A stretch of DNA of 20,594 bases from Bdellovibrionia bacterium (GCA_045805065.1 JBJMMA010000227.1:1-20594), one strand, 5' to 3'; shown: positions 818 to 14,014, numbered from the stretch's first letter. Translations and numbers: made by a program. Notes: a model not told the origin generated them from the sequence alone.

Positions 818-1123
818 TTAGTTAGCTTTCTCTTGAATCAAGACGTAGGGTTGAACAACCAGAGTCGAAAACCGCTTCCCAGGATTTTGCTCCCAGGTGC
901 GAACCTGAGTGGGAGAGGGCTTGGAGAGAAGCTCGCGCCCGATCCAGTCCTGTACCGTTTTTGCGTCATCTTCGGCGATCTTGATTCCCACTTCGATGAT
1001 GTTGAGATCTTGGGAGACTACAACGACTGCTTGCCGCTCGGCGTGGGGGGCGATCCAGTTCCACTCGGCTTGATCGAGCGACTCTTCGAGCGTGGTCTTC
1101 AAATCTTTCTTAAGCTGGGTCAT
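818..1123 (-). CDS. DUF2288 family protein
   Basis: 101 aa with 'AEWNWIAPHAERQAVVVV..DL.IIEVG..IAEDD...VQ.WI...LL.KP' and C-terminal 'VVQPYVLIQE', as recalled for DUF2288. Its start overlaps the upstream stop (TGATG). Confidence 0.8.
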   Translation of the reverse strand: MTQLKKDLKTTLEESLDQAEWNWIAPHAERQAVVVVSQDLNIIEVGIKIAEDDAKTVQDWIGRELLSKPSPTQVRTWEQNPGKRFSTLVVQPYVLIQEKAN

Positions 1124-3969
1124 CAGTAGTAAACTCCCGTGTTTTCATCGAAGAGACCAATGCCCAAAGCTTCTTTGCCACCAGCGCCTGCACTATTCGT
1201 CACATTGGCTTGGCTGTACTGTCCGCCAACCATTAAGCTTCCGGCGGAAGGTGATTCAATCGAGCTCACATAATTATTGCCGGTGTTGTACATATTGTAC
1301 AGATGAGGGTCAAAGCCAGCATTGAACAGTCCTTGAGTCAGATCAAAGGCCATCAGTGATGAGCCGGATGACCCGTCCGCTAAGCCGCCGATGTAAAGAT
1401 ACCCGCCTGACGCTAGAAGAGCGTAGGTTTTGAGCATGCCTGACGGGAGGATGTCAGTCTGACCACTCGACCAAGTCAGAGAGGCGCCGCTGGTTGCGCT
1501 GATTTTCTTAATCAGTGCAACTGGGCTGCCACCTGACGTGAGGGTAGCAACTGCAAGGTCACCTGATGGAAGAAGGGTCATGGTTTGAACGCCTTGAGTG
1601 AGGCCTGCATTGCTCCAGCCGGCAATAGCGCTTGAGCCTGAGGTATTTAAGGCCACAAGTCCGTTATACGTTCCTGCGTTGACTATGTTAAATGAGCCTC
1701 CCACGAAAACGCGATCGGATTTGGCGATAATAGCGTTTACGGAAGGTGGGCCACTTGCTGCTGTGACGGTAGGCGTCCAGCTGCCATCATAGGTCAGGTT
1801 GCTCAAACTGAGTCTTGCCAATCCAGGGAGCGATCCTTGACCTGCCATGCTATTGAAAGTCCCGCCGACGTAAAGGGAGACGTTGTCTGAAGAGAGCGCG
1901 ATCGTGTTTACGTCTTCACCTGAATAAGTATTCGGATGGACTTCATTTAGTAACGAAGCAGAAGCAGTGGATGTAAATTTTTTCACGCCTCCAAGAATAG
2001 AGTGAGCGCTATCCGCTTTGTAGCCTACGAAGATAGCCGAGCCATCTGTCGCCAGCGAAGTTCCTTCTCCCATGCTGCCAGTGGGCGCCCAAGCCGTTGG
2101 AGTGCCCGAGGAGAGATCGAAAGCTGCAATGTTGTTTCTCAGGTTACCTCCAATGGAATGGAAGTCTCCGCCGACATAGAGTCTGCCTGCGGCATCAGGA
2201 ACAATAGTTTTGACTGAACTAAGTGCATTGGTATTAGCCGAGAATATCGCGCTGGCTGACGGTGCAGTGGACGGATTTGAGAACGCAATCACGCCTTGTT
2301 TGATTGGCGTCGCAGAAGTCACCGCAAATTTTCCTCCAATGTAAAGCATTGGAGTTGGCGTCAAAGTGGACAAGGCGAGGGTATTGATCGTCTCGCTGGT
2401 GTTTGCAGTAAACAGGTTGGAAGCCCCCGTGCCTGTCGCTAGATCAAAGCGATATACTTTTGGGCCAGGGCTGAAATTCACTGCCGCAAAGAGATTCAGA
2501 CCATCGCTTACGACAGAGCTGACACTCATGGATCCGGTCATGATAGTAGGATTTGCGTTCCAGGTTGCGTCAGTTGCTCCGGTCGCGCCATCCACACGTG
2601 CCAGATGATTTCGTGTTGCTGAATCTGCAAAGGCTGTAAAGTTGCCGCCCAAGTAAACGCTTGAAGCACCATTGGAGAGGACGGCATTGACCATATTGTT
2701 TGGATCAGGATGCCAATTACCATCCAGCGCAAGAGGGCTGAGAGCGATTGCTACAGCATGTTGATGAGTGCCTCCTGCATAGGAGAAATAACCACCCACA
2801 TAAAGACGATTCGAGCTAAGGCTAATGGAATTGACAAGTGGGCTCGCTCCAAACGTAGCGATAAAGCCCAGGTCGGCGGTAGTTTTAGTTTCTAAGTTAA
2901 AATCAGCCAGTGCCAATGCCGCATTGGCGCTTGCAGAATTGTACGTGAGTTGAGTAAAAGATCCACCTAAATACAAATGGGCACCATCTCGAAGGCAAGT
3001 ATTGACTGCGCCCGTATCCAGCTTGATGACAAAGCTTTTATCCCAGGAGCCATCGCTTGCAATGTGGAGAACTCCAGCGTTCGTGAACAGCGTGCTTTCG
3101 ACGCCTGTGAAAGATCCGCCTACATAGTAGCCGCCCCATCCATCAGGGGTAGCGCAATTCACGACTCCATTGATGTGAGCAATGTTGGAGCCTGCGATCG
3201 AGCCCGTGGTTTGAGAAAGCATGACGCCACTGTGGGTGTTTGGACCGATGTAATCAAATTTGCCTGTGACAAAAGTCGAGCCGTTGACAGTCTTTGAAGC
3301 GTTGACCGTGCCGGGGCCGGTTCCTGCGTAAACTCCCCAAAGATGAGTGCCATCGTCCGTGCCGTTGGAGCGTTTGCATTGATCGAACGCACGTTTGGCG
3401 GACGTGGAGCTATAGCTTGCTTTGATGGTTACACTGGCGTCGCTGAAAATGTCCTGGCGAGTGCTGCCAATTTCGTAAAAATGTCCAACGTTCTTGAAGT
3501 TAATGGCGCCATCCTGAAGCATGTCGCGAAAATTTGGGCAGCCAATCAGGCTCTTAACGCCAAGAATCTTGATCGTGCGGTCTGGGCCAGCTGGAACGAC
3601 AAGATCGATCGATGCGTTTCCGTTAGGAACAAAACCACCTAAAATCGCAGGAGCGTCGGCAGGATCTGTACAGCTGACATTGGGATCAAGATTAATCCCT
3701 GGGCCATTCACATTCACTGCGAAACAGTCAAATTCAGATAAGCTTGCGGGATCCGTGTCCAGATTCGATGAGGTCGTGGGACTTGCCCAGGCCAGGCTGA
3801 TCCACTCGGTCATGCTTTTCAGGATTGGGTTTTGGACGAAGTTTGCGCCAGGAAGCGCAATCGTCAGCGTCTGCTGCTGGCCATTGGATTTCAGCGAGCA
3901 GGAGCTTGCAATCACTGCAAGAGCGAGCACACTCAGGGTCTTGGATTTTTTCAGCGAAACGTACAACAT
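1123..3969 (-). CDS. Large secreted lipoprotein: N-terminal Cys-containing domain plus 14 'LYVGGxF'-type beta-propeller repeats
   Basis: 948-aa ORF with a basic N-terminus, hydrophobic stretch and lipobox-like IASSC. Repeats of about 50-60 aa have the core (L/V)(Y/F)(V/I/L)GGxF. Rich in Ser/Thr/Gly/Asn. Confidence 0.8.
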   Translation of the reverse strand: MLYVSLKKSKTLSVLALAVIASSCSLKSNGQQQTLTIALPGANFVQNPILKSMTEWISLAWASPTTSSNLDTDPASLSEFDCFAVNVNGPGINLDPNVSCTDPADAPAILGGFVPNGNASIDLVVPAGPDRTIKILGVKSLIGCPNFRDMLQDGAINFKNVGHFYEIGSTRQDIFSDASVTIKASYSSTSAKRAFDQCKRSNGTDDGTHLWGVYAGTGPGTVNASKTVNGSTFVTGKFDYIGPNTHSGVMLSQTTGSIAGSNIAHINGVVNCATPDGWGGYYVGGSFTGVESTLFTNAGVLHIASDGSWDKSFVIKLDTGAVNTCLRDGAHLYLGGSFTQLTYNSASANAALALADFNLETKTTADLGFIATFGASPLVNSISLSSNRLYVGGYFSYAGGTHQHAVAIALSPLALDGNWHPDPNNMVNAVLSNGASSVYLGGNFTAFADSATRNHLARVDGATGATDATWNANPTIMTGSMSVSSVVSDGLNLFAAVNFSPGPKVYRFDLATGTGASNLFTANTSETINTLALSTLTPTPMLYIGGKFAVTSATPIKQGVIAFSNPSTAPSASAIFSANTNALSSVKTIVPDAAGRLYVGGDFHSIGGNLRNNIAAFDLSSGTPTAWAPTGSMGEGTSLATDGSAIFVGYKADSAHSILGGVKKFTSTASASLLNEVHPNTYSGEDVNTIALSSDNVSLYVGGTFNSMAGQGSLPGLARLSLSNLTYDGSWTPTVTAASGPPSVNAIIAKSDRVFVGGSFNIVNAGTYNGLVALNTSGSSAIAGWSNAGLTQGVQTMTLLPSGDLAVATLTSGGSPVALIKKISATSGASLTWSSGQTDILPSGMLKTYALLASGGYLYIGGLADGSSGSSLMAFDLTQGLFNAGFDPHLYNMYNTGNNYVSSIESPSAGSLMVGGQYSQANVTNSAGAGGKEALGIGLFDENTGVYY

Positions 3970-4002
3970 AAATCACCGCCTACTCAATGGAATTGATTCT
4001 GA

Positions 4003-5082
4003 TCAGTTCGTGGTAATCACCACTCGAAGTTTTTTGAGAGATCCTTGGGTGTTGATCGCAGGTTGATTGAAAATCTGGTTAGGTCCCAGTGCACCAGGAA
4101 TATTGAGATCGATCGGGCGCACGGGAGGAGGAGGTGGGAGCGGAACTTCCGTAGAAGCCAAGACTCGATGGATTCCATCAGGAGAGGGAGCCAGGCCAGG
4201 GCCGCCGCTGCTTGCAGGAGATCTGCTTCCCTGACCGCCTTGATTGGAGTTTTCGACAATGACTGCCTTTTGGAAAGTCGTGTCGACGACTTTTGCCTCA
4301 GTGGCAATCGTTTTCATTTGGCCTGCATCCATCATTTTTGGAGCAGTAATAGCCGCGCTCCCCAGAGCCGTTGAGATCTGATTGCCGGCAGTCAGGCTTA
4401 CGATGCCTGCGCTCGAAGGGTTGCGACCTGCGGTCATTGCGCTTGCATTGAAATCGTGTTTGCCAACGTCCACTTTTCCCTGAAGCACGGTGACTTCAGT
4501 AGAGGACTTCAGATTGGGCTCTTGTGACGCTAAAGCAGCGGGCGGCAAGGTGCCGGAGGTATTCTTCAAAAGTTTGCCAACATCCTTGAGATCGCTGACT
4601 TCGGATTTGACGACAAACTCGGTGCCGCGAACACCCATGGTTGCGCTCGGGGTTTTGACCTTGAACTTGCCTTTGCCTTCAAGCTTCTGAGTAACGGCTG
4701 CGCGCATGGTGCCATAGACCATGCTCACATCGACTTCACGATCGGCTGCGCCTTTCTTTCCTTTGAAGTCATCGATCTTGAAAAGAGCGGATGGGCCCAA
4801 GTCGATGATGCTCTTGTCTTTCATGAGGACTTTAATGCGGCCGTCGCTACCGGTATTGATTACATCCTTGATGTAGATCACATCGCCGGCCTTCGCGGTT
4901 CGCATTTTTGCCTGTTGCGCATCCGAGCGAAGAAGGACTGTTCCTGAGACGCTGACAATATCGCCAGCGGGTGCGCTCTCATTCGCGTCTGTTGCCCACG
5001 ACGAAGTCGAGAGACAGAAAGGAGAGGCCATCAGGGAGATGGTTGTCAGGAAACTGGGTATAGAACGAAGTACGTGCCGCAT
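4003..5082 (-). CDS. Secreted FecR-domain protein with Pro-rich C-terminal tail
   Basis: FecR motifs 'GDVI...D.INTG.DGR', 'LGPS', 'VKTPSATMGVRGTEF', 'VTVLQGKV'. Start moved to ATG 5082 (MRHVLR...SSWA signal peptide), which removes the overlap with the divergent gene. Confidence 0.8.
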   Translation of the reverse strand: MRHVLRSIPSFLTTISLMASPFCLSTSSWATDANESAPAGDIVSVSGTVLLRSDAQQAKMRTAKAGDVIYIKDVINTGSDGRIKVLMKDKSIIDLGPSALFKIDDFKGKKGAADREVDVSMVYGTMRAAVTQKLEGKGKFKVKTPSATMGVRGTEFVVKSEVSDLKDVGKLLKNTSGTLPPAALASQEPNLKSSTEVTVLQGKVDVGKHDFNASAMTAGRNPSSAGIVSLTAGNQISTALGSAAITAPKMMDAGQMKTIATEAKVVDTTFQKAVIVENSNQGGQGSRSPASSGGPGLAPSPDGIHRVLASTEVPLPPPPPVRPIDLNIPGALGPNQIFNQPAINTQGSLKKLRVVITTN

Positions 5083-5125
5083 TTTATCATGGTAAGTCGG
5101 CTCTTCCAGTCTTACAATTTGTGTC
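5083..5125. promoter_or_regulatory. 43-bp divergent promoter region with back-to-back -10 boxes
   Basis: Plus strand: TACAAT (5113-5118) 7 nt before ATG 5126. Minus strand: TACCAT (5094-5089) 6 nt before ATG 5082. Neither side has an SD. Confidence 0.5.
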
Positions 5126-6730
5126 ATGGGTAACACAGGGGGAAGAGGACTGAGACAGGCTTTAACGGGTCTAGCATCTGTGTCCTTTTTGTATCCGCTT
5201 ATTCTCACTAGCGTGGCTTTCGGAGAGGAATCCCACCCCGGAATGAACGCAGAAGTCCTTTATTCTGAGGCTGTCATTGCTTTGAGCCGCAAGCAGACGC
5301 AGCAGGCTTTGGATACTTTGGACCAGCTTTTAAAGGAGTTTCCAAAGAATACCGAGGCTTTGGAGCTGAAGGCGCTGACCCTGAAGAACGAGGGCAGTGC
5401 GGATCTTGCGATTGAGTCTTATAAGAAGCTTATTCAACTCAAGCCAAGCTCCGAACGAGGGCCGTATCACTTTGAGCTTGGGATGATTTATAACCGTCAA
5501 AAAAATGCCGCTCAGGCGCGATACCATTTCGCGATGGCGCTCAAGCTCAAGACCAATCCAACGATCAGTCGGTTTTTTCTGGCCATGCTGAGCTATGAAG
5601 ACGGGCGGTATAAAAACGCAGAGCTTCATTTCCGCAGAGTGGCTCATGACGATACAGGCGAGCTCAAGCTGATCTCGCATTATTACCTTGGTCTGATTGA
5701 GCTCAAGACCGGTTACTCCCTGGGCGCAACTCGCGATCTTCGTGAGGCAAGAAACCTTGCCAGCGCAATGCCTGAGAACAAGAACGCGAAAGAGATCATG
5801 ACATCGTCCGATCAGATCCTGGCGCCTTTTGGAAAGCCACAATGGTTTGCCAACTTGGCGATGCTGGGCGGATATGATTCCAATATCTCCCAAGTGCCGA
5901 CCAGTCTTGCGACTTCCAATCAGGTGTCAGGACGTTCCACCGCGAAAACGACGCTCTCTTTGGGTGTTGGGCACATGACCGCTCCCATGGACACGGTCCA
6001 ATACGTGACCAATTATCGCTTCAATCTGAACAAGAACTTCAGCTCCGATACGCGCAATTATGAGTTTGCGACCAACACGCTCTCATTTTATGCCAATTTC
6101 CTTCCTTTGAACCCGACCCAGGGTGGCTTCAAGGTGGAAGGAAGCTTCATGTTTCAGAATCAGCCCCAGGATAATGCGTCGGCAACAGATGCGAACGCTC
6201 GTTATACCTACGGAAAGTATAATCTGAGCGCTGAAATCGGACCTTTCTTTCGGTATCAGCCCTCCCGACAGATCAGTACCGAGCTCGATGTTTATCTCAG
6301 GCCTCAAAAGTATTATCAGATCGATGGACAGTCGGGGACCGCGATCTTTACTCGCGCAAGCATCCGCTGGGATCTCTTTCAAAATTGGTTCAATCCAAGC
6401 GGATCTCTGAGTTACGAGAGTAATCACGCTAAAAGCGGGGATTATCGCGAAAACAGTATTGGAATCGGCGCATCCAACCTGTTCAAGATCACTCCTGTCG
6501 ATAGCTTGAATTTCTACTTTGATTTCACTTCGACCAAATATCCGGAGTACTCTGCGGGATCGGTTCGTGCGGATAAAAATTACGCCTTTCGCTTGAACCA
6601 TGCTCACACGATCAACGCGAAATGGACGCTTCTTGCGGATCTGACCTATACGCTGAATCGCTCCTCGGTTGCTGAGACTTATACCTACAACCGGCTCCAA
6701 AGCGGTTTGGGTATCAGCTGGTCGCTCTAA
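5126..6730 (+). CDS. TPR-repeat protein with C-terminal outer-membrane beta-barrel (Slam/DUF560-like architecture)
   Basis: 534 aa with a signal peptide (..SVAFG/EE). About 200 aa of TPR helices ('HFELGMIY', 'HYYLGLIE') are followed by 'GGYDSNI' and amphipathic aromatic-rich strands ending 'SGLGISWSL'. Confidence 0.75.
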   Translation: MGNTGGRGLRQALTGLASVSFLYPLILTSVAFGEESHPGMNAEVLYSEAVIALSRKQTQQALDTLDQLLKEFPKNTEALELKALTLKNEGSADLAIESYKKLIQLKPSSERGPYHFELGMIYNRQKNAAQARYHFAMALKLKTNPTISRFFLAMLSYEDGRYKNAELHFRRVAHDDTGELKLISHYYLGLIELKTGYSLGATRDLREARNLASAMPENKNAKEIMTSSDQILAPFGKPQWFANLAMLGGYDSNISQVPTSLATSNQVSGRSTAKTTLSLGVGHMTAPMDTVQYVTNYRFNLNKNFSSDTRNYEFATNTLSFYANFLPLNPTQGGFKVEGSFMFQNQPQDNASATDANARYTYGKYNLSAEIGPFFRYQPSRQISTELDVYLRPQKYYQIDGQSGTAIFTRASIRWDLFQNWFNPSGSLSYESNHAKSGDYRENSIGIGASNLFKITPVDSLNFYFDFTSTKYPEYSAGSVRADKNYAFRLNHAHTINAKWTLLADLTYTLNRSSVAETYTYNRLQSGLGISWSL

Positions 6731-7558: not shown

Positions 7559-7583
7559 TTTGATCATGGGACATCATGATCAA
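7550..7583. repeat. Two overlapping inverted repeats spanning a stop codon and the next start codon
   Basis: GTCCCATGAT (7550-7559) pairs with ATCATGGGAC (7563-7572); TTGATCATG (7560-7568) pairs with CATGATCAA (7575-7583). Confidence 0.7.
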
Positions 7584-8166
7584 GCGGGTATACATCTTTC
7601 GACATGGCGAAACAGACTGGAACCGAGAAGGGCGCTTTCAAGGCCATCTTGATGTTCCGATCAACGAGACGGGGAGGAGACAAGCGATTGAGCTTGTCTC
7701 CCGTCTCGATGGCTCAGGAATCGAAGCCATTTTAAGCAGTGATCTCTCGCGCGCCTATGAGACGGCGCGTATTGTCGCAAATCAGTTAGGGATCCCTGTT
7801 TTCTCTCACGAAGGACTCCGAGAAGCGCATCTGGGTGAAGCCCAAGGACTTGTGCGCGAGGAAATTGAGCGCCGTTTTGGAACGGAAATCGCGACCAAAT
7901 GGCGTTCCAACCAGATTAGTGATGCGGACATCTGCTATCCAGGAGGCGAAACCGGCGCTGCGATCATGAAGCGCGTGTTTGACGCCATGGAAGCCTTCTT
8001 ACATGACCGCGCTTATGAAAACGTGGCGATCTCCACTCACGGTGGGGTGATTCGCAGGGTGATGCAGAGACTGCTTCCTCCGGGAAGCGAGATGGTTCCA
8101 ATTCCCAATACGGTTCTTTATCTGCTAACTTATGATCTCAAGGAACGTCGATGGAGGTCTGCCTGA
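7576..8166 (+). CDS. Histidine phosphatase (phosphoglycerate mutase/CobC-like) family protein
   Basis: RHGETDWN motif, 'SSDLSRAYETA', 'LRE..LG..QG', 'PGGE', 'STHGGVIR'. No signal peptide. Confidence 0.92.
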   Translation: MIKRVYIFRHGETDWNREGRFQGHLDVPINETGRRQAIELVSRLDGSGIEAILSSDLSRAYETARIVANQLGIPVFSHEGLREAHLGEAQGLVREEIERRFGTEIATKWRSNQISDADICYPGGETGAAIMKRVFDAMEAFLHDRAYENVAISTHGGVIRRVMQRLLPPGSEMVPIPNTVLYLLTYDLKERRWRSA

Positions 8167-8171
8167 TTTTT

Positions 8172-8702
8172 ATGATTCGCACTTCAAAAAAGTACTTCAG
8201 CAAAGCTTTGATCCTAACGAGTATTTTTGCTTTCAGTAGTCCGGCATTTGCGGAGCATACCCGGCCGACCAATCCCAATGCGGTCAGCTTGGAAATTCTC
8301 GGTAAGACTTTTCTTTACACCGTGCAATATGATCGTGCAGTGACGGACGACGTCTTTGCGGGTGTTGGGGTCGGAAGTGTAGCGCTGGATTATCTCAATG
8401 GTACAGATGCGGGCAACTCGGCGGTTCTCGTTCCTGTTTATGCCGGCTATTACTTTCTAAGAGATCAAGGATCGCCGTTCGTTATTGCGGGCGCGTCCTT
8501 AGTCACGAATCACTCGGAAACCAGCGGGAAGAAAACGAACCTCGCCGGCCTTGAGATGGGCTCTAGTCAGGTTCTTCCGTTTTTCGGAGCAGGCTATGAA
8601 GTCCGCACGGACTCAGGCTTTCTCTTTCGCGTGACCGGATACGGTGAAATCGGTAAATCGCTCAAGCCTTGGGGCGGCGCTACCTTTGGATATGCGTTCT
8701 AG
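8172..8702 (+). CDS. Small outer-membrane beta-barrel protein
   Basis: Signal peptide ending AFA, about eight amphipathic strands, and a C-terminal BAM-type signal 'GATFGYAF'. ATG 8172 preferred because it lies 5 nt after the upstream stop. Confidence 0.7.
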   Translation: MIRTSKKYFSKALILTSIFAFSSPAFAEHTRPTNPNAVSLEILGKTFLYTVQYDRAVTDDVFAGVGVGSVALDYLNGTDAGNSAVLVPVYAGYYFLRDQGSPFVIAGASLVTNHSETSGKKTNLAGLEMGSSQVLPFFGAGYEVRTDSGFLFRVTGYGEIGKSLKPWGGATFGYAF

Positions 8703-8707
8703 CGAAT

Positions 8708-9880
8708 ATGCGTTTTAGCCTTCGCTGGGCTTTATCTCTCACCGCTTTACAGATTCTTTTCATGCTAGCGCTTGCGCCAGGGACCTCCTTTGGCGCGCGC
8801 TATCTAGCATTCAACAATTGGGATAGCTTCCACTATCTGCATATCGCAGAAGGCGGATACAAGATCCCCACGGGCACGATCACTAGTGACGATATTCATG
8901 AAGGACGCGCCAATGTGGTTTTCTTTCCTGGATATCCCATGGCAGCGCGTGGAGTCTCGCAGCTCACGGGGCTTTCAGTTCCGCTCAGCTTGCTGATTGT
9001 CGCGCAGCTTTGTTGTTTTATTTTCTGGATCTATTTCTTTCTGTTGATGAAGCAGTTTGGATTGAGCGAGGAGACTGCACGAAATCGCGCGTTGTGCATT
9101 GCGCTCCATCCTGCGGCCTTTTACCTGGTCGCAGGTTATACAGAGACTCTTTTTCTTGTTGGCATGATGGGCTTTCTCTACTGGAGCAATCGCTGGCTCA
9201 AGGAGGGGGGAGTGGCAGGGGTGATTGCGGCCGCTCACGGCTTCGCCATGTCGATCACCCGGATCGTCTCTTTTGCTCCGGCTTCTTATCCAAGCTTTGT
9301 GGAGCTTTTCTCCCATGGGCCTTCTGCGCTGAAGAAAGCGAAATTCTGGAAAGCCGTAGCGATCTCCCTTGCAGGAGTTTCCGGCGCGGTTGTCTTTTTT
9401 GCTTATTGCCAATCCCGTTTCGGGATGTGGAATCTCTACTTTCAGCTTGAGGAAACAGGCTGGCAAAATCATCGGCGCTGGTTTGCCGTGATTAATCCAT
9501 TGTCTTACGTGCCTCGTTTTTTCTTTGAGCACTCGGTGGATTCGCTGAACCGAACTGCGGTTTTGGTGACCGGGATTCAGCTCGTTCAGACATTTCCTAA
9601 AAAGCAGTCTTGGAGAAAAATTTTCAGCGCTGAACTTTTGCCGCTTTGGATCGTGGCCTTTACGCTTTTCTATATCGCGCTCACCGGCAAAGCCAACGCC
9701 AATATGGATAGCATGCTCAGGTACACGCTTCCGCCTTTCATTTTACTTTTGTTGATTGGCGCGCGTGAGGGAACGGATCTGCTCAAGCGTCCTCGTTGGA
9801 TCGCTCTTGCCGCGGTTTTCTCGTTCGCACTTCAAATCTGGTGCGCTTATCGCTTTTTACGCGGACACTGGGTGGCCTAG
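8708..9880 (+). CDS. GT-C glycosyltransferase, PIG-V-like (Mannosyl_trans2/GT76-like)
   Basis: 'WDSFHYLHIAEGGY', 'VFFPGYP', 'GYTETLF' and a late 'RY' motif match PIG-V-type signatures (WD..yl.IA..GY, FFP.yP, YsEslF). Multi-pass membrane protein; ATG 8708. Confidence 0.85.
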   Translation: MRFSLRWALSLTALQILFMLALAPGTSFGARYLAFNNWDSFHYLHIAEGGYKIPTGTITSDDIHEGRANVVFFPGYPMAARGVSQLTGLSVPLSLLIVAQLCCFIFWIYFFLLMKQFGLSEETARNRALCIALHPAAFYLVAGYTETLFLVGMMGFLYWSNRWLKEGGVAGVIAAAHGFAMSITRIVSFAPASYPSFVELFSHGPSALKKAKFWKAVAISLAGVSGAVVFFAYCQSRFGMWNLYFQLEETGWQNHRRWFAVINPLSYVPRFFFEHSVDSLNRTAVLVTGIQLVQTFPKKQSWRKIFSAELLPLWIVAFTLFYIALTGKANANMDSMLRYTLPPFILLLLIGAREGTDLLKRPRWIALAAVFSFALQIWCAYRFLRGHWVA

Positions 9881-11325
9881 GGGCCGCACTCAAAGAGCGT
9901 CCAGTTTCTGAGCCTTGCGAGAGGTTTCCAATCGGGAAGAGAATGAGTCACGGGGCGGCAGCGGTTCGATAACTCCGGATTCGAGCTGGAGTTGAGTTCC
10001 GCTGAAGGCGATGCGTACCAAAACGCTGTCGCTGGAGCGCTGCCGCCTTCCAGTGGCGAAAGCTTCAGTCCTTCAGGCCGGTAAAAGTACATGGGGATTC
10101 CTAAAAGCGTATAAGGATCCTGACCCGGAGAATAATAGAGCTCGGTCAGCGATCGATCATAGACCGCCTTGTAAAACCGCATTCCTGGGGCTGCGGGAAC
10201 GAGTGCAAGCGTCACGAGCGCAATGCCGTTCAAAGCGAATATGCCATCGCCTGCCCAACGTGAAGGCCTGCGAGCCAAGATCCATTCCCCAATGGAGCGT
10301 CCATGATGCTGCGTGAAAAGAAGAAGCATGAGAATGACAGGGGCCGCATGAGCCAGAGGAAAAAGAAAGCGCGTCTCTTTGTGCCCGATCCCAAGGTGCA
10401 CGAGGAATAAGGGGGCATGCGACCAGGTCAGCACATGCCGAGGCTCTCGGATCCAGAAAAAGATAAGCCCCATCAGGGTCAGAAACCCAAGAACCGGAAC
10501 ACTCTCAGTCCAGCTTCTTCTGAAATAATCCCACCACGGAGAAACATCGGTCGATGAGACGTAGTCCTGGATCAAGTTGAAGTGAAAGTAATTCCAGGGA
10601 GCGAAGGTCCACTTTCCATAACCTAAGAAATCGAGATAAGTCCCAAATCCAATGGCAAGTACGATCCCCGCAAACAGAATCGTTAGGTCTCTGATCCGAA
10701 GTCTTGCCATCAGCGCAAACCAGAAAAAGCCTCCGGCAACCATAAAGCCTAGCTGATATCTTGCCTCAAAGGCCAGACCCCAGAGGATGCCGGGAAAAAC
10801 CCAAACGAGTGCTGACTTTGCAAAGCCAGTGGTCTCTTTTCGCATCATCTGAACGGCTAAGCACAGGCCGATCACGAACAAGGCGCCACTCAGGTTTTCA
10901 GACGAAGTACGCGCATGAAGGGCGGGCAGGCACCAGAACAAAGAGAGCGCGATCACGCTCCATTTCTGCCAACGGGTCTCTTTCACCCAAAGCGGAATAC
11001 AAAGAGCAAGGCTCACGACACTGAGCCATCCAATCAGAGAGGAGAGAAGCCTCATGGCCAAGGCCCAGGTAAAAGGATTCTGGATTCCCAATGCCATCAA
11101 AAGCCGCACTGGCACCCAATAGAGAAAGGGTTGAAACCAGGGCCTGATCATATGAGAGTATTCGATCGGGAGCGCTGAAGGCGGCGTGCGCCCTAAAACC
11201 GTGCCCAGGAATTCAAGAATCTGGAAATGCTCATCTGAGTTCTGATAGCCCGTGCTGAAGATCGCAGCCAGAAGGTGCAGCCCCAGGGAAATCAGTAGCC
11301 AGCGAATCAGGAATCGTTTGCTCAC
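9877..11325 (-). CDS. GT-C glycosyltransferase, GT22 family, PIG-B-like
   Basis: 'DEHFQILE', 'EY...IRP', 'RTSSE' and 'HKETRFLFP' match PIG-B/Alg9-type motifs (DE.wQ.lE, HKE.RF..P). GTG start; multi-pass membrane protein. Confidence 0.85.
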   Translation of the reverse strand: MSKRFLIRWLLISLGLHLLAAIFSTGYQNSDEHFQILEFLGTVLGRTPPSALPIEYSHMIRPWFQPFLYWVPVRLLMALGIQNPFTWALAMRLLSSLIGWLSVVSLALCIPLWVKETRWQKWSVIALSLFWCLPALHARTSSENLSGALFVIGLCLAVQMMRKETTGFAKSALVWVFPGILWGLAFEARYQLGFMVAGGFFWFALMARLRIRDLTILFAGIVLAIGFGTYLDFLGYGKWTFAPWNYFHFNLIQDYVSSTDVSPWWDYFRRSWTESVPVLGFLTLMGLIFFWIREPRHVLTWSHAPLFLVHLGIGHKETRFLFPLAHAAPVILMLLLFTQHHGRSIGEWILARRPSRWAGDGIFALNGIALVTLALVPAAPGMRFYKAVYDRSLTELYYSPGQDPYTLLGIPMYFYRPEGLKLSPLEGGSAPATAFWYASPSAELNSSSNPELSNRCRPVTHSLPDWKPLARLRNWTLFECGP

Positions 11326-11355
11326 CTTCGCAAGTTTTGCATAAACTACCCTTGA

Positions 11356-12546
11356 ATGGAAAACGAAAGAACTCAGTCAAAATCGGTATTAACGAAAAAA
11401 AGGGTCATTCATTGTCTGTGGATCATTCTCGGCATTGCCGCTTCCATTCGCCTGATTCGCGCGGCTCAGGCCGATAGCATGGACTTTCATGTCTATTGGA
11501 AGGCTGCTCAGACTTGGATCGGGCAGGGGATCTCCCCTTATCTTTACGATGCTTCTGATCGTGGGTTTGTCTTCAAGTATCCTCCCTGGATCCTGCCATT
11601 TTTTTTCCCCTTTGGTTTTCTCTCTTTTGAGGCTTCAAAGGTTACTTGGGCGTTAGTTGGGCTCTTTTGTATCTATTTTTCGATCTACCAACTGATCCGG
11701 CAGGGGATGCGACCAGGGGTTGCTTTCGTTTCTGCGGCTTTGTTTTGGTGGATCTGGCTTGGGCATATCTATTCGGGACAATTTACTCTTGTTCTGCTTG
11801 CTGCTGCGATGTGGGCGGTGCCGACCCGGTCTTCGCCAGGAAAGCTTGCCTTTCTATCCATTATTTTCACGACGAAAGTGTTTTCAGTCATTTCGCTTCT
11901 GGGGCGCTGGCGTGAGTGCTTTCGCCTCAGGCCTGTCGTTGCAGGTCTCGCTCTGCTTTTGTTTTTGCATCTGATCGTCTTCGGAGTGTTTGTCCTGCAT
12001 GGGCAGAGCTATGGGATGGTGGAGCTTTATCGGCAGTGGGTTCAAGCTGCGAGCTCCGGTGGTCAAGAGCTGGGAGCAGTCGTTGTCCGCGGACAAATGA
12101 ATCATGGTTTTACGGCAGGAGTGCTGCGGGCTTTTCATGTGGATGCTCACGAGACTTCGCTCGATTACAAGGTGGCTCTTGTGCTTGCTGCGCTGTTTTC
12201 AGCGATTTGGGTGCGGGCTTCCAAGGGACTTAAGCCTGTTGAAGTTTGGGCCGGATGGCTTGGCGTGGGACTGATCTGTCATCCGCTTGCCTGGCATCAT
12301 TCGTTTGTGCTGGCATATCCTTTGTGCGCATTATCATTGGATCGAGCAGTGAGTACGCGTAGCACGTGGCTGAAGGCTCTTTCAGTCTTTGGCATGGTCT
12401 GCATTGGAATTCTTATTCCCAATGTGTTTGGGATGACGCTTGTGACTCCACTGGAAATGATCTCCATCAAGTCCTGGGGAGTTTGCTTTTCTGCTCTTGC
12501 CCTTGTTTTGGCGACACGCTCACTGAGTTCCCAGCAGCCCGCTTAA
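11356..12546 (+). CDS. GT-C glycosyltransferase, GT87/DUF2029 family (PimE/PIG-M-related)
   Basis: 'DFHVYWKAA', 'GISPY', 'FKYPP', 'GQ' and 'PLAWHH' motifs; multi-pass membrane protein. Confidence 0.85.
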   Translation: MENERTQSKSVLTKKRVIHCLWIILGIAASIRLIRAAQADSMDFHVYWKAAQTWIGQGISPYLYDASDRGFVFKYPPWILPFFFPFGFLSFEASKVTWALVGLFCIYFSIYQLIRQGMRPGVAFVSAALFWWIWLGHIYSGQFTLVLLAAAMWAVPTRSSPGKLAFLSIIFTTKVFSVISLLGRWRECFRLRPVVAGLALLLFLHLIVFGVFVLHGQSYGMVELYRQWVQAASSGGQELGAVVVRGQMNHGFTAGVLRAFHVDAHETSLDYKVALVLAALFSAIWVRASKGLKPVEVWAGWLGVGLICHPLAWHHSFVLAYPLCALSLDRAVSTRSTWLKALSVFGMVCIGILIPNVFGMTLVTPLEMISIKSWGVCFSALALVLATRSLSSQQPA

Positions 12547-14014
12547 AAAGTGATATGGCTTTTAAGCTCCGGCTTGAGTGTTCCACGACTCGCTCAGGAT
12601 AGCCTTTAGGAAGCTTTGGGAGTTTCCAGGGCTCATGGATATGACGTGTAGCGACTTCCGCGAGCTCCGGCACGAACTTGCGCACGAAGGTACCCTCCGG
12701 ATCGTAGTGCTTTCCTTGCAGAGTCGGATTGAAAATTCGGAAATATGGCTGTGGATCACATCCTGTGGATGCGGCCCACTGCCAGCCGCCATTGTTTGCG
12801 GCTTGATCGCCATCTAAAAGCTTTTCCATGAAATAGCGCTCACCCCACTGCCAGTTGATCAGAAGATCCTTGGTCAAAAAGGAGGCAACCACCATGCGCA
12901 TTCTGTTATGCATCCAGCCTGTGGTGTTGAGCTGCCTCATCGCCGCATCGACAATGGGATAGCCTGTTTTTCCTTCGCACCAGGCTTGAAAAAGTTTCCG
13001 GTCGTCTTCCCAATCAATATTCTTGTACTTGGGTTGGAAGGCTTCCTTCTCAACGCGTGGGGCGTGATAAAGGATGTGATAGTAGAACTCACGCCAGATC
13101 AGCTCGTTCAGAAATTTAGTCCGCGAATCCTGAGTTGCTGCCGAACGATCAGAATGTTTTTGCTGAGCGAGGTCAAGTTCCGCGATCACTTGCGCGCTCG
13201 AGATGGATCCATTCTTCAGATAGATCGAAAGGCGAGAGGTCCCGTCGATGGATGGGATGTCTCGGTTTTTGGCATAATCCTGGATTCCTGTTTCTGCAAA
13301 GTGCCGCAGCTGCTCAAGCGCTGCCTGATGCCCTGCGCGCGGAAGCGGCACTTCGCTCTGAGGCAGGGTCTTGGTGCGGTAGCTTTCCAGCTGATCAGAA
13401 AACTTTGAGGCGAGCCGGTCTGTGAGGATTTTCTTCCATGCCAGGTGGAATGACTCACTCTTTTGTTCCTTGAGTCTTTGCTGGATTTCCTGACTGAAGA
13501 AAGCCTTCATCCACTTTTTTTGAAATGGGGAATAAACCTGATACCAGTTTCCACTGCTGCCTTTGGCAGGCTCCTTGGAAATCTCATGAGGCTCGATCAG
13601 GAGATGGTCTCGCTCCGTATGAACCGGAATTTGAAAGCGCCTGGAGACGAGGGCTTCGATTTTTGCATCACGCTCTCGGGCAAAGGGTTCATAGTCCCGG
13701 TTGAAAGACAACGTGGAAGGAAGTGGAAGCTCCGCGTCCTTGAGAGCTGAAAAAAGCGAGTCAAAGGCCTGGTCGGGACCTTGATCTAAAACCAGAAGGT
13801 CGCCACCCAATGCTTTCATTTCTTTCTTGAGCTCGCAAACCGTCTCAAGAAGGAAAGCAAAGCGGCTCATGGAGATGTCTTTCCTGGCTAGAAATTTGGG
13901 ATCAAAGACAAAGATACCCAGGACGCGTCCCTGGTGAGCTTTGCAATTCGATAACAAAGCAGGATTTCCGGCCACTCGGAGATCGCGTCGAAACCAATGA
14001 ATCCCATATTTCAT
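12467..14014 (-). CDS. phrB: Deoxyribodipyrimidine (CPD class I-type) photolyase
   Basis: 'WFRRDLRV..NPAL', 'GTSRLS.YL..G', 'ELIWREFY', 'GKTGYPIVDAAMRQL..TGWMHNR.RM..ASFL.KDL', 'NNGGWQW.AS.G.D..PYFRIFNP'. The Trp triad positions are present. Confidence 0.95.
   Translation of the reverse strand: MKYGIHWFRRDLRVAGNPALLSNCKAHQGRVLGIFVFDPKFLARKDISMSRFAFLLETVCELKKEMKALGGDLLVLDQGPDQAFDSLFSALKDAELPLPSTLSFNRDYEPFARERDAKIEALVSRRFQIPVHTERDHLLIEPHEISKEPAKGSSGNWYQVYSPFQKKWMKAFFSQEIQQRLKEQKSESFHLAWKKILTDRLASKFSDQLESYRTKTLPQSEVPLPRAGHQAALEQLRHFAETGIQDYAKNRDIPSIDGTSRLSIYLKNGSISSAQVIAELDLAQQKHSDRSAATQDSRTKFLNELIWREFYYHILYHAPRVEKEAFQPKYKNIDWEDDRKLFQAWCEGKTGYPIVDAAMRQLNTTGWMHNRMRMVVASFLTKDLLINWQWGERYFMEKLLDGDQAANNGGWQWAASTGCDPQPYFRIFNPTLQGKHYDPEGTFVRKFVPELAEVATRHIHEPWKLPKLPKGYPERVVEHSSRSLKAISLFKRAAGNSVSVSPKQGQEQKSKLPRT

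What the first reader, a model, noticed from the sequence alone, without database searches (positions are those of the whole stretch)
8708..12546. Three adjacent GT-C transferases mirroring the GPI trimannosyl-core enzymes (PIG-V-like, PIG-B-like, GT87/PIG-M-like)
Seen: three consecutive multi-pass genes, each with the acidic first-loop motif of a different GT-C family (WDSFHYLHIAEGGY; DEHFQILE plus HKETRF; DSMDFHVYWKAA...GISPYL...KYPP). Known: eukaryotic GPI anchors receive three mannoses from a polyprenyl-P-mannose donor via PIG-M, PIG-V and PIG-B in turn. The third gene's N-terminal loop resembles the PIG-M pattern D..V...AA....G.SPY....Y.P as I recall it. Inference: a periplasmic assembly line for a GPI-core-like or PIM-like oligoglycosyl lipid or protein glycan in a Gram-negative bacterium. 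Caveats: orientation is +/-/+ rather than one operon, each family occurs separately in bacteria, the sugar cannot be read from sequence, and the window has no GT2 donor synthase, PIG-A/PIG-L or transamidase.
Basis: partly seen in the sequence, partly recalled or inferred. Interest (0 to 1): 0.85.

Follow-up and report, generated by a model that had tools for sequence, protein, structure and literature searches.

The report
Three clustered bacterial GT-C glycosyltransferases
Three neighbouring membrane sugar-transferase genes in an uncultured predator-group bacterium are real, and two of them form a conserved pair, but nothing shows that they build a eukaryote-like GPI anchor.

Summary
Window 8708-12546 carries three adjacent multi-pass genes with the quoted motifs, each just after the first membrane helix. 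g2 is a clear GT22 (Alg9/PIG-B family). g3 is a GT87 whose model is closest to mycobacterial PimE, not to PIG-M. g1 has a confident GT-C fold, but scores below the Pfam threshold for PIG-V.

The genome is an Oligoflexia (Bdellovibrionota) MAG. Across the 75 genomes of its family, all 13 close g3 orthologues lie directly beside g2. With one pair split at a contig end, that makes 14 pairs in 11 genera, 7 divergent and 7 as g3-then-g2. g1 lies within 2 kb of the pair in only 5 genomes.

The GPI/PIM reading is not supported. An inositol-phosphate synthase and PIP-synthase-like genes exist, but only 17 of 28 g2 genomes and 12 of 14 pair genomes carry the synthase. No C13 peptidase or PIG-M was found. 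More distant bacterial GT22 genes often sit beside LPS genes.

Best reading: periplasmic, polyprenyl-phosphate-sugar-dependent glycosylation of an envelope glycolipid, possibly LPS. The core is a coupled GT87-GT22 pair and g1 is an accessory. The acceptor and the sugar are unknown.

The parts
8708..9880 (+). g1: 390-aa GT-C fold membrane glycosyltransferase, a distant PIG-V (PF04188)-like family. Putative catalytic loop NWDSFHYLHIAEGG, with WDS at nt 8819-8827.
   Evidence: ORF. The gene callers' form P0001 is 390 aa. AF2 model pLDDT 91.6. Top Foldseek and VIA matches are GT-C enzymes, Z about 20 to Pmt4, STT3, AglB, ALG12 and ArnT. PF04188 at 18.1 bits, below the 22.4 cut-off. W38 and D39 invariant.
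9877..11325 (-). g2: 482-aa GT22 (Alg9/ALG12/PIG-B family) glycosyltransferase. DEHF loop at nt 11224-11235 and HKETRF at nt 10366-10383. About 100 C-terminal residues lie outside the Pfam match and hold invariant Cys456 and Cys480.
   Evidence: PF03901 at E 3.3e-22. The family profile hits chicken ALG12 (9s6t) at E 5.7e-7 across the HKExRF block. Invariant columns. JGI names homologues 'phosphatidylinositol glycan class B'.
11356..12546 (+). g3: 396-aa GT87 glycosyltransferase, structurally PimE-like. DSMDF at nt 11473-11487 and KYPP at nt 11575-11586.
   Evidence: PF09594 at 30 bits, above the 25 cut-off. AF2 model pLDDT 93.9. Foldseek best match PimE 9dm5, TM 0.69/0.71. VIA Z 25.8 over 355 residues at rmsd 4.1. 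Directly beside g2 for all 13 close orthologues in the family.
8151..8702 (+). Neighbour, membership uncertain: 183-aa secreted small outer-membrane beta-barrel-like protein. It ends 5 bp before g1 and overlaps the histidine-phosphatase gene upstream, so it is probably co-transcribed with g1.
   Evidence: ORF and sequence. No Pfam or NCBIfam hit. ESM Atlas look-alikes are OMP beta-barrel clusters, score 0.96-0.97. It precedes g1 in G001. In G019 it lies with the phosphatase gene about 1.5 kb from g2, with two other ORFs between and no g1.

Best explanation
The locus encodes three inner-membrane GT-C glycosyltransferases. Their catalytic acidic loops face the periplasm, and they take a sugar from a polyprenyl-phosphate-sugar donor. 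In known GT22 enzymes and in PimE, the characterised GT87 enzyme cited here, that sugar is mannose. The functional core is the GT87 (g3) plus GT22 (g2) pair, which most likely adds successive hexoses to one lipid-anchored envelope glycan. g1, a PIG-V-like GT-C, is a lineage-specific accessory third transferase. Because g2 is by far the most widely kept and often stands alone, it probably performs the founding step and g3 and g1 elaborate its product. My preferred acceptor is the lipid A-core region of LPS or a similar outer-envelope glycolipid, at about 0.3. The locus is not a GPI pathway. Shown: the folds, the families, conserved catalytic-loop residues, the conserved g2-g3 adjacency, and the presence of donor-synthase candidates and of lipid A synthesis. 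Inferred: periplasmic orientation, the donor type, the sugar, the order of action and the acceptor.
For: Families and folds. Acidic motifs just after TM1 and invariant in the families. PimE uses an Asp at the tip of the first juxtamembrane helix as catalytic base, with polyprenyl-P-mannose as donor (PMC12041525, passages read). Coupling of g2 and g3: among 75 family genomes, 13 of 13 A3 matches with E <= 1e-130 lie within about 100 bp of g2. G022, split at a contig end, makes 14 pairs in 11 genera. The orientation changed (7 divergent, 7 co-directional g3 then g2) while the adjacency was kept. g1: 11 of the 12 genomes with a close g1 orthologue also have g2. g1 lies within 2 kb of the pair in 5 genomes from 4 genera (G000, G001, G007, G022, G081) and 18 kb away in G004. 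Donors: 17 GT2 genes, of which 6 resemble polyprenyl-P-sugar synthases of the ArnC/PgfS, AglJ, PpgS or Dol-P-hexose types. LPS lead: in 30 GT22 loci from other bacteria, 6 had LPS-specific neighbours. These were GT9 in L042 and L109; the Wzy_C O-antigen ligase family in L086 and L049; a KdsB-type cytidylyltransferase in L086; and LptB plus LptC/OstA in L100 and L107. LpxC is present in this genome. Bdellovibrio bacteriovorus lipid A carries alpha-D-mannose in place of phosphate (Schwudke 2003, as cited in PMC13689555, passages read).
Against: No neighbour of the pair within the window's own family points to LPS or to any glycan pathway. The contexts there are flagellar, translation, trehalose or housekeeping genes and differ from genome to genome. 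The LPS contexts come from homologues only 29-35% identical to g2, and 24 of the 30 loci showed none. g2 stands without a close g3 in 15 of the 28 genomes with a strong g2 match. In two of those (G043, G063) a weaker g3-like gene lies on another contig. g1 lies away from the pair in 7 of its 12 genomes. The three donor-synthase candidates tested do not follow g2: C197_260 is in 15 of 28 g2 genomes and was not found in G004 or G081, while C193_289 and C188_261 are each in 11 of 75. The sugar and the acceptor cannot be read from sequence. g2 was not modelled, and no expression data were examined. The promoter and terminator scan was at chance level.
Confidence: 0.55

Rival explanations
1. PIM-like or GPI-core-like pathway: the three enzymes mannosylate an inositol phospholipid made by this genome's inositol-phosphate synthase and PIP synthase, giving a PIM/GPI-like glycolipid in a Gram-negative bacterium.
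For: The genome encodes myo-inositol-1-phosphate synthase (PF07994, E 4.5e-99). It lies directly beside a CDP-alcohol phosphatidyltransferase whose best NCBIfam matches are archaetidylinositol-phosphate and PIP synthases, at E 2e-33 and 1e-30, below the cut-offs. A second PIP-synthase-like gene lies on contig C90. g3's closest solved structure is PimE, which mannosylates PI mannosides. JGI labels g2 homologues PIG-B or GPI mannosyltransferase 3. The synthase is present in 12 of 14 genomes with the pair and in 11 of 12 with g1.
Against: The synthase is common in the family anyway (53 of 75), so 12/14 and 11/12 are not clearly enriched. g2 occurs in 11 genomes where no synthase was found, including all 4 of genus g10 (completeness 77-95%). 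The g2-g3 pair occurs in G075 and G076 (75% and 82% complete), which lack it, as does their 93%-complete congener G017. None of the 30 examined GT22 loci had an inositol or CDP-alcohol gene among the four nearest genes. No C13 peptidase was found. There was no PF05007 match, although the control for that search rang nowhere. PimE is the only GT87 entry among the structural matches, so the best hit says nothing about the acceptor. From recall, GT87 also includes arabinosyl- and LAM-branching transferases.
Confidence: 0.08
2. No common pathway: the three GT-C genes are independent enzymes (for example each decorating a different glycan or protein) that happen to sit together in a rearrangement-prone region. 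At most g2-g3 share regulation.
For: The orientation is +/-/+, and g1 converges on g2 with a 4-bp overlap. g1 lies elsewhere in 7 of the 12 genomes that have it, and in G062 a g1-like gene sits beside a g3-like gene without g2. g2 stands alone in many genomes. Outside the family, GT22 genes are mostly solitary or in GT22 tandems: only 3 of 79 loci had a g3-like neighbour, 2 of 79 a g1-like one, and at least 9 had GT22 repeats. The genome holds at least 9 GT-C genes.
Against: The strict adjacency of g3 orthologues to g2 (13 of 13, plus G022) across 11 genera, kept through changes of orientation and of all flanking genes, is hard to explain without a shared function. g1 orthologues almost never occur without g2 (11 of 12).
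Confidence: 0.2
3. Protein glycosylation: the enzymes mannosylate periplasmic or outer-membrane proteins (PMT- or DPY19-like O- or C-glycosylation) rather than a lipid-linked glycan.
For: g1's highest VIA scores are to the protein O-mannosyltransferases Pmt4 (Z 20.2) and Pmt1-Pmt2 (19.7) and to oligosaccharyltransferases (about 19-20). g1 is probably co-transcribed with a small outer-membrane beta-barrel protein gene.
Against: The Z values for PMT, STT3, AglB, ALG12 and ArnT are tied within about 1-2 units, so no subfamily is singled out. g1 lacks the large soluble domains of PMT and STT3 (390 aa in all). The characterised GT22 and GT87 enzymes I know of act on lipid-linked glycans (recalled; for PimE). 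The OMP gene accompanies g1 only in the window's own genus.
Confidence: 0.1

Closest known systems
PimE (Mycobacterium, GT87), the polyprenyl-phosphate-mannose-dependent PI-mannoside alpha-1,2-mannosyltransferase
   Same: g3 passes the GT87 Pfam cut-off. Its model superposes best on PimE: Z 25.8, 355 residues, rmsd 4.1, 16% identity, and Foldseek TM 0.69/0.71. It has a conserved Asp at the start of the first loop helix after TM1. Conserved K174 and H309/H315 could correspond to PimE's D58, K195 and H322. That correspondence is inferred, not aligned residue by residue.
   Different: Only 16-19% identity. A family profile of g3 does not detect PimE by sequence. The host is a Gram-negative bacterium. 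g3 is paired with a GT22, which is not part of the PIM pathway as I recall it. No dependence on inositol synthesis was seen.
Eukaryotic GT22 enzymes: ALG9, ALG12, PIG-B (GPI mannosyltransferase III), PIG-Z
   Same: g2 matches PF03901 over profile positions 2-326 of 414. It carries the HKExRF block, aligned to ALG12's HKELRF, and an invariant DE after TM1. Annotation pipelines call its relatives PIG-B.
   Different: It is bacterial. It has about 100 extra C-terminal residues with two invariant cysteines. No phylogeny with eukaryotic members could be made here, so 'PIG-B-like' as against 'ALG9/12-like' is undecided. More distant bacterial relatives sit in LPS-type neighbourhoods.
PIG-V / Gpi18 (GT76, PF04188), GPI mannosyltransferase II
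   Same: PF04188 is the only Pfam family that g1 and its relatives hit repeatedly: 7 of 29 relatives at E <= 0.01 (best 1.7e-14) and 11 of 71 library representatives at E <= 0.001. The G014 orthologue scores 29.7 bits, above the cut-off. g1 has a GT-C fold and a WD motif in the first loop.
   Different: The window protein itself is below the Pfam cut-off (18.1 against 22.4 bits). Most relatives have no Pfam hit at all. The g1 profile belongs to a very large, mostly unnamed family (16,457 representatives at E <= 0.001). No PIG-V structure was among the PDB matches to compare with.
Periplasmic lipid A and LPS-core GT-C modification enzymes (ArnT; Rhizobium RgtA-D, recalled)
   Same: They share the fold class, a polyprenyl-phosphate-sugar donor made by a GT2 enzyme, and action on the periplasmic face. 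ArnT is among the structural matches of g1 (Z 18.6). GT22 relatives lie beside WaaL-family, GT9, KdsB-type and Lpt genes in 6 of 30 loci.
   Different: The CAZy families differ (GT83 against GT22, GT87 and PIG-V-like). No LPS gene lies next to the pair in the window's own family. No biochemical link is known.
Eukaryotic GPI core mannosylation (PIG-M/X, PIG-V, PIG-B)
   Same: Three different GT-C enzymes. Two of the three families (GT22 and, loosely, PIG-V-like) are shared.
   Different: No GT50/PIG-M: g3 is GT87 and scores Z 17.2 to Gpi14 against 25.8 to PimE. No C13 transamidase was found. The genes do not track inositol synthesis. PIG-A, PIG-L and PIG-X were not searched for.

Membership tests
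GT22 (PF03901, Alg9-like mannosyltransferases) for g2 | Pfam model match above the gathering score | tested here: met
   79.7 bits against a cut-off of 23.8, E 3.3e-22. All g2 orthologues scanned also pass.
GT22 for g2 | Conserved HKExRF block and an acidic DE motif in the first lumenal/periplasmic loop | tested here: met
   HKETRF at residues 315-320 and DEHF at 31-34. H310, K316, R319, D31 and E32 are invariant in 36 sequences. The block aligns to HKELRF of chicken ALG12.
GT22 for g2 | Dol-P/polyprenyl-P-mannose-dependent mannosyl transfer | not testable with these tools
   Needs an enzyme assay.
GT87 (PF09594) for g3 | Pfam model match above the gathering score | tested here: met
   30.0 bits against a cut-off of 25, E 5.4e-7. 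In the precomputed annotations many, but not all, listed homologues carry PF09594.
GT87 for g3 | Fold closest to the solved GT87 member PimE | tested here: met
   VIA Z 25.8 for PimE against 21.4 for the next family, ALG3. Foldseek E 7e-6, TM 0.69/0.71.
GT87 for g3 | Catalytic Asp at the tip of the first juxtamembrane helix (PimE D58), with Lys/His holding the donor phosphate (K195, H322) | tested here: inconclusive
   D43 (90% or more conserved) lies at the start of the first loop helix. K174 is invariant and H309/H315 nearly so. No residue-level superposition was available to confirm equivalence (for the PimE residues).
GT76 / PIG-V (PF04188) for g1 | Pfam model match above the gathering score | tested here: not met
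   18.1-18.2 bits against a cut-off of 22.4 for the window protein. One orthologue (G014) reaches 29.7 bits. 7 of 29 relatives match at E <= 0.01 and 11 of 71 representatives at E <= 0.001.
GT-C fold superfamily for g1 | Multi-pass GT-C core with an acidic residue in the first extracytoplasmic loop | tested here: met
   pLDDT 91.6. Z 17-20 over 310-335 residues to Pmt4, STT3, AglB, ALG12, ArnT and PglB. W38 and D39 invariant.
GT50 / PIG-M (PF05007) for g3 | Pfam match or closest fold to GPI-MT-I | tested here: not met
   g3 scanned against all of Pfam at E <= 0.01 matched only GT87. Gpi14 (9wno) gives Z 17.2 against 25.8 for PimE. The whole-genome PF05007 search found nothing, but its control rang nowhere, so that part is uninformative.
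GPI-anchoring system | GPI transamidase (C13 peptidase, GPI8-like) in the genome | tested here: not met
   No PF01650 match in the 94%-complete genome. The control rang in Caulobacter.
GPI-anchoring system | PIG-A-type GlcNAc transferase and PIG-L-type de-N-acetylase | not tested
   Not searched for. A YdjC-type deacetylase fused to GT87 and GT2 domains exists elsewhere, on contig C90.
Inositol-lipid glycosylation (PIM-like or GPI-like) | Genome can make inositol phospholipid | tested here: met
   An inositol-phosphate synthase lies beside a PIP-synthase-like CDP-alcohol phosphatidyltransferase. The latter scores below the NCBIfam equivalog cut-offs.
Inositol-lipid glycosylation (PIM-like or GPI-like) | The transferases co-occur with inositol synthesis across relatives | tested here: not met
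   The synthase is in 17 of 28 g2 genomes, 12 of 14 pair genomes and 53 of 75 overall. Genus g17 has the pair without it. Some of these genomes are incomplete.

The most novel reading that the evidence does not exclude
The GT87-GT22 pair, with the PIG-V-like g1 in some lineages, mannosylates a phosphatidylinositol made by the genome's own inositol-phosphate synthase and PIP synthase. That would give a PIM/GPI-core-like inositol glycolipid in a Gram-negative Bdellovibrionota lineage, a bacterial counterpart of the eukaryotic GPI mannosylation module. Lineages without the synthase would then have switched acceptor.
Probability: 0.07. Interest if true: 0.85.

Novelty: new member of a known kind. 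Interest (0 to 1): 0.38.

Why it matters
Bacterial GT22 ("PIG-B-like") enzymes are widespread. One scan found 468 confirmed relatives, and the best 79 loci spanned Bdellovibrionota, Bacteroidota, Gemmatimonadota, Nitrospinota, Myxococcota and Acidobacteriota. I found no paper on their function in five literature searches.

A strictly conserved GT87-GT22 pair gives a defined two-gene unit to test. The LPS-type neighbourhoods of distant relatives suggest candidates for unexplained neutral-sugar decorations of LPS in predatory bacteria. One such decoration is the mannosylated lipid A of Bdellovibrio, for which the 2026 review passages I read name no enzyme.

The result also warns against automatic "PIG-B / GPI mannosyltransferase" labels on bacterial genes.

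Tried and rejected
**Sequence searches against the PDB**
- g2 and g3 as single sequences gave nothing relevant.
- Profiles of g1 and g3 gave nothing.
- Only the g2 profile reached a solved structure, ALG12.
- NCBIfam has no model for any of the three.

**Inositol link**
- A first look at 25 family genomes suggested that every genome with g1 or g3 has the synthase (10 of 10 against 7 of 15).
- The full family of 75 genomes removed that pattern, so I dropped it.

**Donor synthase by phyletic pattern**
- Three of the six candidates were tested, and none follows g2.
- The two ArnC/PgfS-like genes and C60_245 were not tested.

**Trehalose link**
- GT20, GH15 and GH65 genes flank the trio in G007, and a GT20 gene lies near g1 in G014.
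- In G000 the GT20 genes are on other contigs, so I dropped this.

**Second PIP-synthase-like gene**
- It lies near the GT87-GT2-YdjC cluster on C90.
- It was not found in the fetched stretches of the four relatives checked; two of those stretches end at a contig end.

**Other steps**
- The search of the genus of 'Bdellovibrio sp. ZAP7' for GT22 covered only 5 genomes, all with a match and 2 of them strong, so it said little.
- The promoter and terminator scan was at chance level.
- Earlier notes of this scan returned nothing.
- A ManC-type domain search gave only a weak 137-aa hit, so the GDP-mannose supply is unresolved.

**Not done**
- A phylogeny with eukaryotic PIG-B/ALG9/PIG-V sequences, because none could be brought in.
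- A complex prediction, because no binding claim is made.
- A look at expression data.

Full report
**What is there**

The window is one whole contig (C227, 20,594 bp) of a 4.2-Mb metagenome-assembled genome that is 94% complete. Its closest protein relatives come from Oligoflexia and Bdellovibrionota MAGs. LpxC is present, so it makes lipid A.

Three multi-pass membrane genes lie side by side between 8708 and 12546:
- g1: 8708-9880, + strand, 390 aa. A TTG at 8669 would give 403 aa.
- g2: 9877-11325, - strand, 482 aa.
- g3: 11356-12546, + strand, 396 aa.

g1 and g2 converge and overlap by 4 bp. g2 and g3 diverge, with 30 bp between their start codons. Each acidic motif sits just after the first hydrophobic segment, and the motif residues are invariant or nearly so in alignments of 29, 36 and 34 relatives.

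**Family assignment**

g2 is a clear GT22:
- PF03901 matches at E 3.3e-22.
- A profile of 36 relatives reaches chicken ALG12 in the PDB at E 5.7e-7, across the HKExRF block.
- JGI's pipeline names many relatives 'phosphatidylinositol glycan class B'.

g3 passes the GT87 threshold, at 30 bits against 25. Its AlphaFold model has pLDDT 93.9 and fits mycobacterial PimE best. VIA gives Z 25.8 over 355 residues at rmsd 4.1, and Foldseek gives TM 0.69/0.71. Next come ALG3 (Z 21.4), PIG-U (19.3), ALG6 (17.9) and the PIG-M orthologue Gpi14 (17.2). So g3 is PimE-like rather than PIG-M-like, although both belong to one structural group.

g1's model has pLDDT 91.6 and is an unmistakable GT-C. It scores Z about 17-20 to Pmt4, STT3, AglB, ALG12, ArnT and PglB, and these are effectively tied. 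By sequence it is only a peripheral relative of PIG-V:
- The window protein scores 18.1 bits against a cut-off of 22.4.
- 7 of 29 relatives match PF04188 at E <= 0.01.
- One orthologue is above the cut-off.
- A profile of the family finds 16,457 representatives at E <= 0.001 in a 1.84-billion-protein library.
- I scanned 71 of these, taking every second one of the 142 new proteins among the best 150. Only 11 matched PF04188 at E <= 0.001, and no other GT-C family recurred.

**Do the three belong together?**

I searched all 75 genomes held for the window's family with profiles of the three proteins.

g2:
- It has a strong match (E <= 1e-140) in 28 genomes.

g3:
- It has a close match (E <= 1e-130) in 13 genomes, and in all 13 it lies within about 100 bp of g2.
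- G022, where g3 is cut by a contig end, makes 14 pairs in 11 genera.
- The pair is divergent in 7 genomes and co-directional, g3 then g2, in 7.
- The flanking genes differ almost everywhere, so the adjacency itself appears to be what is kept.

g1:
- It has a close match (E <= 1e-110) in 12 genomes, and 11 of them also have g2.
- It lies within 2 kb of the pair in only 5 genomes (G000, G001, G007, G022, G081; 4 genera).
- It is 18 kb away in G004 and elsewhere in the rest.
- In G007 the gene order is g1, g3, g2.

Outside the family, a pattern scan of one genome per prokaryote species with the g2 profile confirmed 468 relatives. The best 79 loci span Bdellovibrionota, Bacteroidota, Gemmatimonadota, Nitrospinota, Myxococcota, Acidobacteriota and others. 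Of those 79:
- 3 have a g3-like neighbour.
- 2 have a g1-like neighbour.
- At least 9 carry tandem GT22 copies.

The trio is therefore a lineage-specific arrangement built around a robust GT87-GT22 pair.

**Testing the GPI/PIM idea**

Donors exist. Of 17 GT2 genes, 6 resemble polyprenyl-phosphate-sugar synthases.

The genome also has an inositol-phosphate synthase (E 4.5e-99). It lies directly beside a CDP-alcohol phosphatidyltransferase whose best NCBIfam matches are archaetidylinositol-phosphate and PIP synthases, below their cut-offs. A second such gene lies on contig C90. So an inositol phospholipid acceptor is plausible in this organism.

In a first sample of 25 family genomes, all 10 with g1 or g3 had the synthase. 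The full family removed the pattern:
- The synthase is in 53 of 75 genomes.
- It is in 17 of 28 g2 genomes, and in none of the four genomes of genus g10.
- It is in 12 of 14 pair genomes. G075 and G076 lack it, as does their 93%-complete congener G017.
- It is in 11 of 12 g1 genomes.

Incomplete assemblies weaken single absences, but g2 clearly does not depend on inositol synthesis, and the pair probably does not either. No C13 peptidase was found. A PIG-M family search found nothing, though its control was silent. PIG-A and PIG-L were not searched for. I put the PIM/GPI-like reading at about 0.07-0.08.

**What the acceptor might be**

In the window's family the neighbours give no hint. I then looked at 30 GT22 loci from other bacteria, scanning two genes on each side. 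Six had LPS-specific neighbours:
- GT9 heptosyltransferase-family genes in L042 and L109, the latter also with an MsbA-like ABC transporter.
- Wzy_C/O-antigen-ligase family genes in L049 and L086.
- A KdsB-type cytidylyltransferase and a GT4 in L086, which is from 'Bdellovibrio sp. ZAP7'.
- LptB plus LptC/OstA in L100 and L107.

Others had nucleotide-sugar genes or GT2 genes. None had inositol genes.

Bdellovibrio bacteriovorus lipid A is known to carry alpha-D-mannose in place of its phosphates (Schwudke 2003, as cited in a 2026 review of which I read passages). The passages I read name no enzyme for this. That makes periplasmic LPS/lipid A-core glycosylation my preferred acceptor class, at about 0.3. 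It remains an extrapolation from homologues only 29-35% identical.

Three donor-synthase candidates do not follow g2's distribution.

**Mechanism proposed**

All three are inverting GT-C transferases. A catalytic acidic residue sits on the first periplasmic loop: g1 D39, g2 D31/E32, g3 D43. The donor is a polyprenyl-phosphate-hexose. This follows PimE, where D58 at the tip of the first juxtamembrane helix is the base and K195 and H322 hold the donor phosphate (PMC12041525, passages).

g2 is the widest-kept enzyme and often stands alone, so it probably acts first. g3, which is always beside it, and g1 then extend its product. The order, the sugar and the acceptor are inferred.

**Literature**

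Five full-text searches found no paper on bacterial GT22 function, on a GT22-GT87 pair, or on inositol lipids in Bdellovibrionota. I saw search listings and abstracts for these, and read passages of three papers: PMC12173739, PMC13689555 and PMC12041525.

**Verdict**

The resemblance to the GPI trimannosyl module is a family-level echo (GT22, and loosely PIG-V) rather than a pathway. This is an uncharacterised member of the known class of periplasmic, polyprenyl-phosphate-sugar-dependent envelope glycosylation systems. Interest is moderate.

Noticed in passing
G000 contig C90, locus L023:3560-10292 (- strand): A second GT-C cluster: a 356-aa unknown, a GT2 (267 aa), a methyltransferase, a 945-aa three-part protein (GT87 at the N-terminus, a GT2-like middle, a YdjC/HpnK-type deacetylase at the C-terminus) and a 466-aa unknown. 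Its core genes are conserved in order in G001, G007, G012 and G014; the ends of the cluster fall outside some fetched stretches. In G000 a PIP-synthase-like gene lies two genes further on, but none was found in the fetched stretches of those relatives. A glycosyltransferase plus a sugar deacetylase plus a GT-C is loosely reminiscent of the early GPI steps.
   Followed up: partly
G000 contig C40, locus L037:98-8143: A PIP-synthase-like CDP-alcohol phosphatidyltransferase, myo-inositol-1-phosphate synthase and a GFO/IDH/MocA oxidoreductase lie side by side. A small unrelated gene and two 640-aa PLD-type proteins follow. The synthase occurs in 53 of 75 genomes of this Oligoflexia family, so inositol lipids may be common there. 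A search for inositol, phosphatidylinositol and Bdellovibrionota together found no paper.
   Followed up: partly
window 9877-10180 (C-terminal ~100 residues of g2): g2 and its relatives carry about 100 residues after the last membrane segment. This tail has invariant Y415, C456 and C480 and lies outside the Pfam GT22 match (residues 9-334). It may be a disulfide-bonded periplasmic domain specific to the bacterial clade.
   Followed up: no
G000 contig C212, locus L024:6594-9342: A paralogue of g1 (437 aa, 32% identity) overlaps the end of a 510-aa amine-oxidase/phytoene-desaturase-like flavoprotein gene on the same strand.
   Followed up: no
L027 (G007) and L036 (G014): Trehalose genes lie around the GT-C genes. 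In G007 a GT20 OtsA-type gene (742 aa), a GH15 gene and a GH65 gene flank the trio. In G014 a GT20 gene lies one gene from g1. In G000 the two GT20 genes are on other contigs.
   Followed up: partly
window 12467-12546: The 3' ends of g3 (+) and the photolyase gene (-, 12467-14014) overlap by 80 bp. tblastn matches point to a similar overlap of about 58 bp in G001.
   Followed up: no
window 7576-8702: A cytoplasmic histidine-phosphatase gene (cobC/PspA-like, below the equivalog cut-offs) overlaps the start of a small outer-membrane beta-barrel-like gene that runs up to g1. The phosphatase-barrel pair is also found in G019, and the end of the barrel gene precedes g1 in G001.
   Followed up: partly
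L044, L053, L065 (Halobacteriovorax marinus) and other loci: Arrays of two or three tandem GT22 paralogues occur in several Bdellovibrionota and Bacteroidota genomes. Some lie beside GT2 genes, GDP-mannose dehydratase-type genes or a PMT_2 GT-C gene.
   Followed up: partly
window 1123-6730: A 948-aa beta-propeller protein (Rax2/DUF5122 repeats), a FecR-domain protein with weak similarity to Leptospira LipL45/Lsa33, and a 534-aa TPR protein lie upstream of the GT-C region. None is conserved next to the pair in relatives.
   Followed up: no
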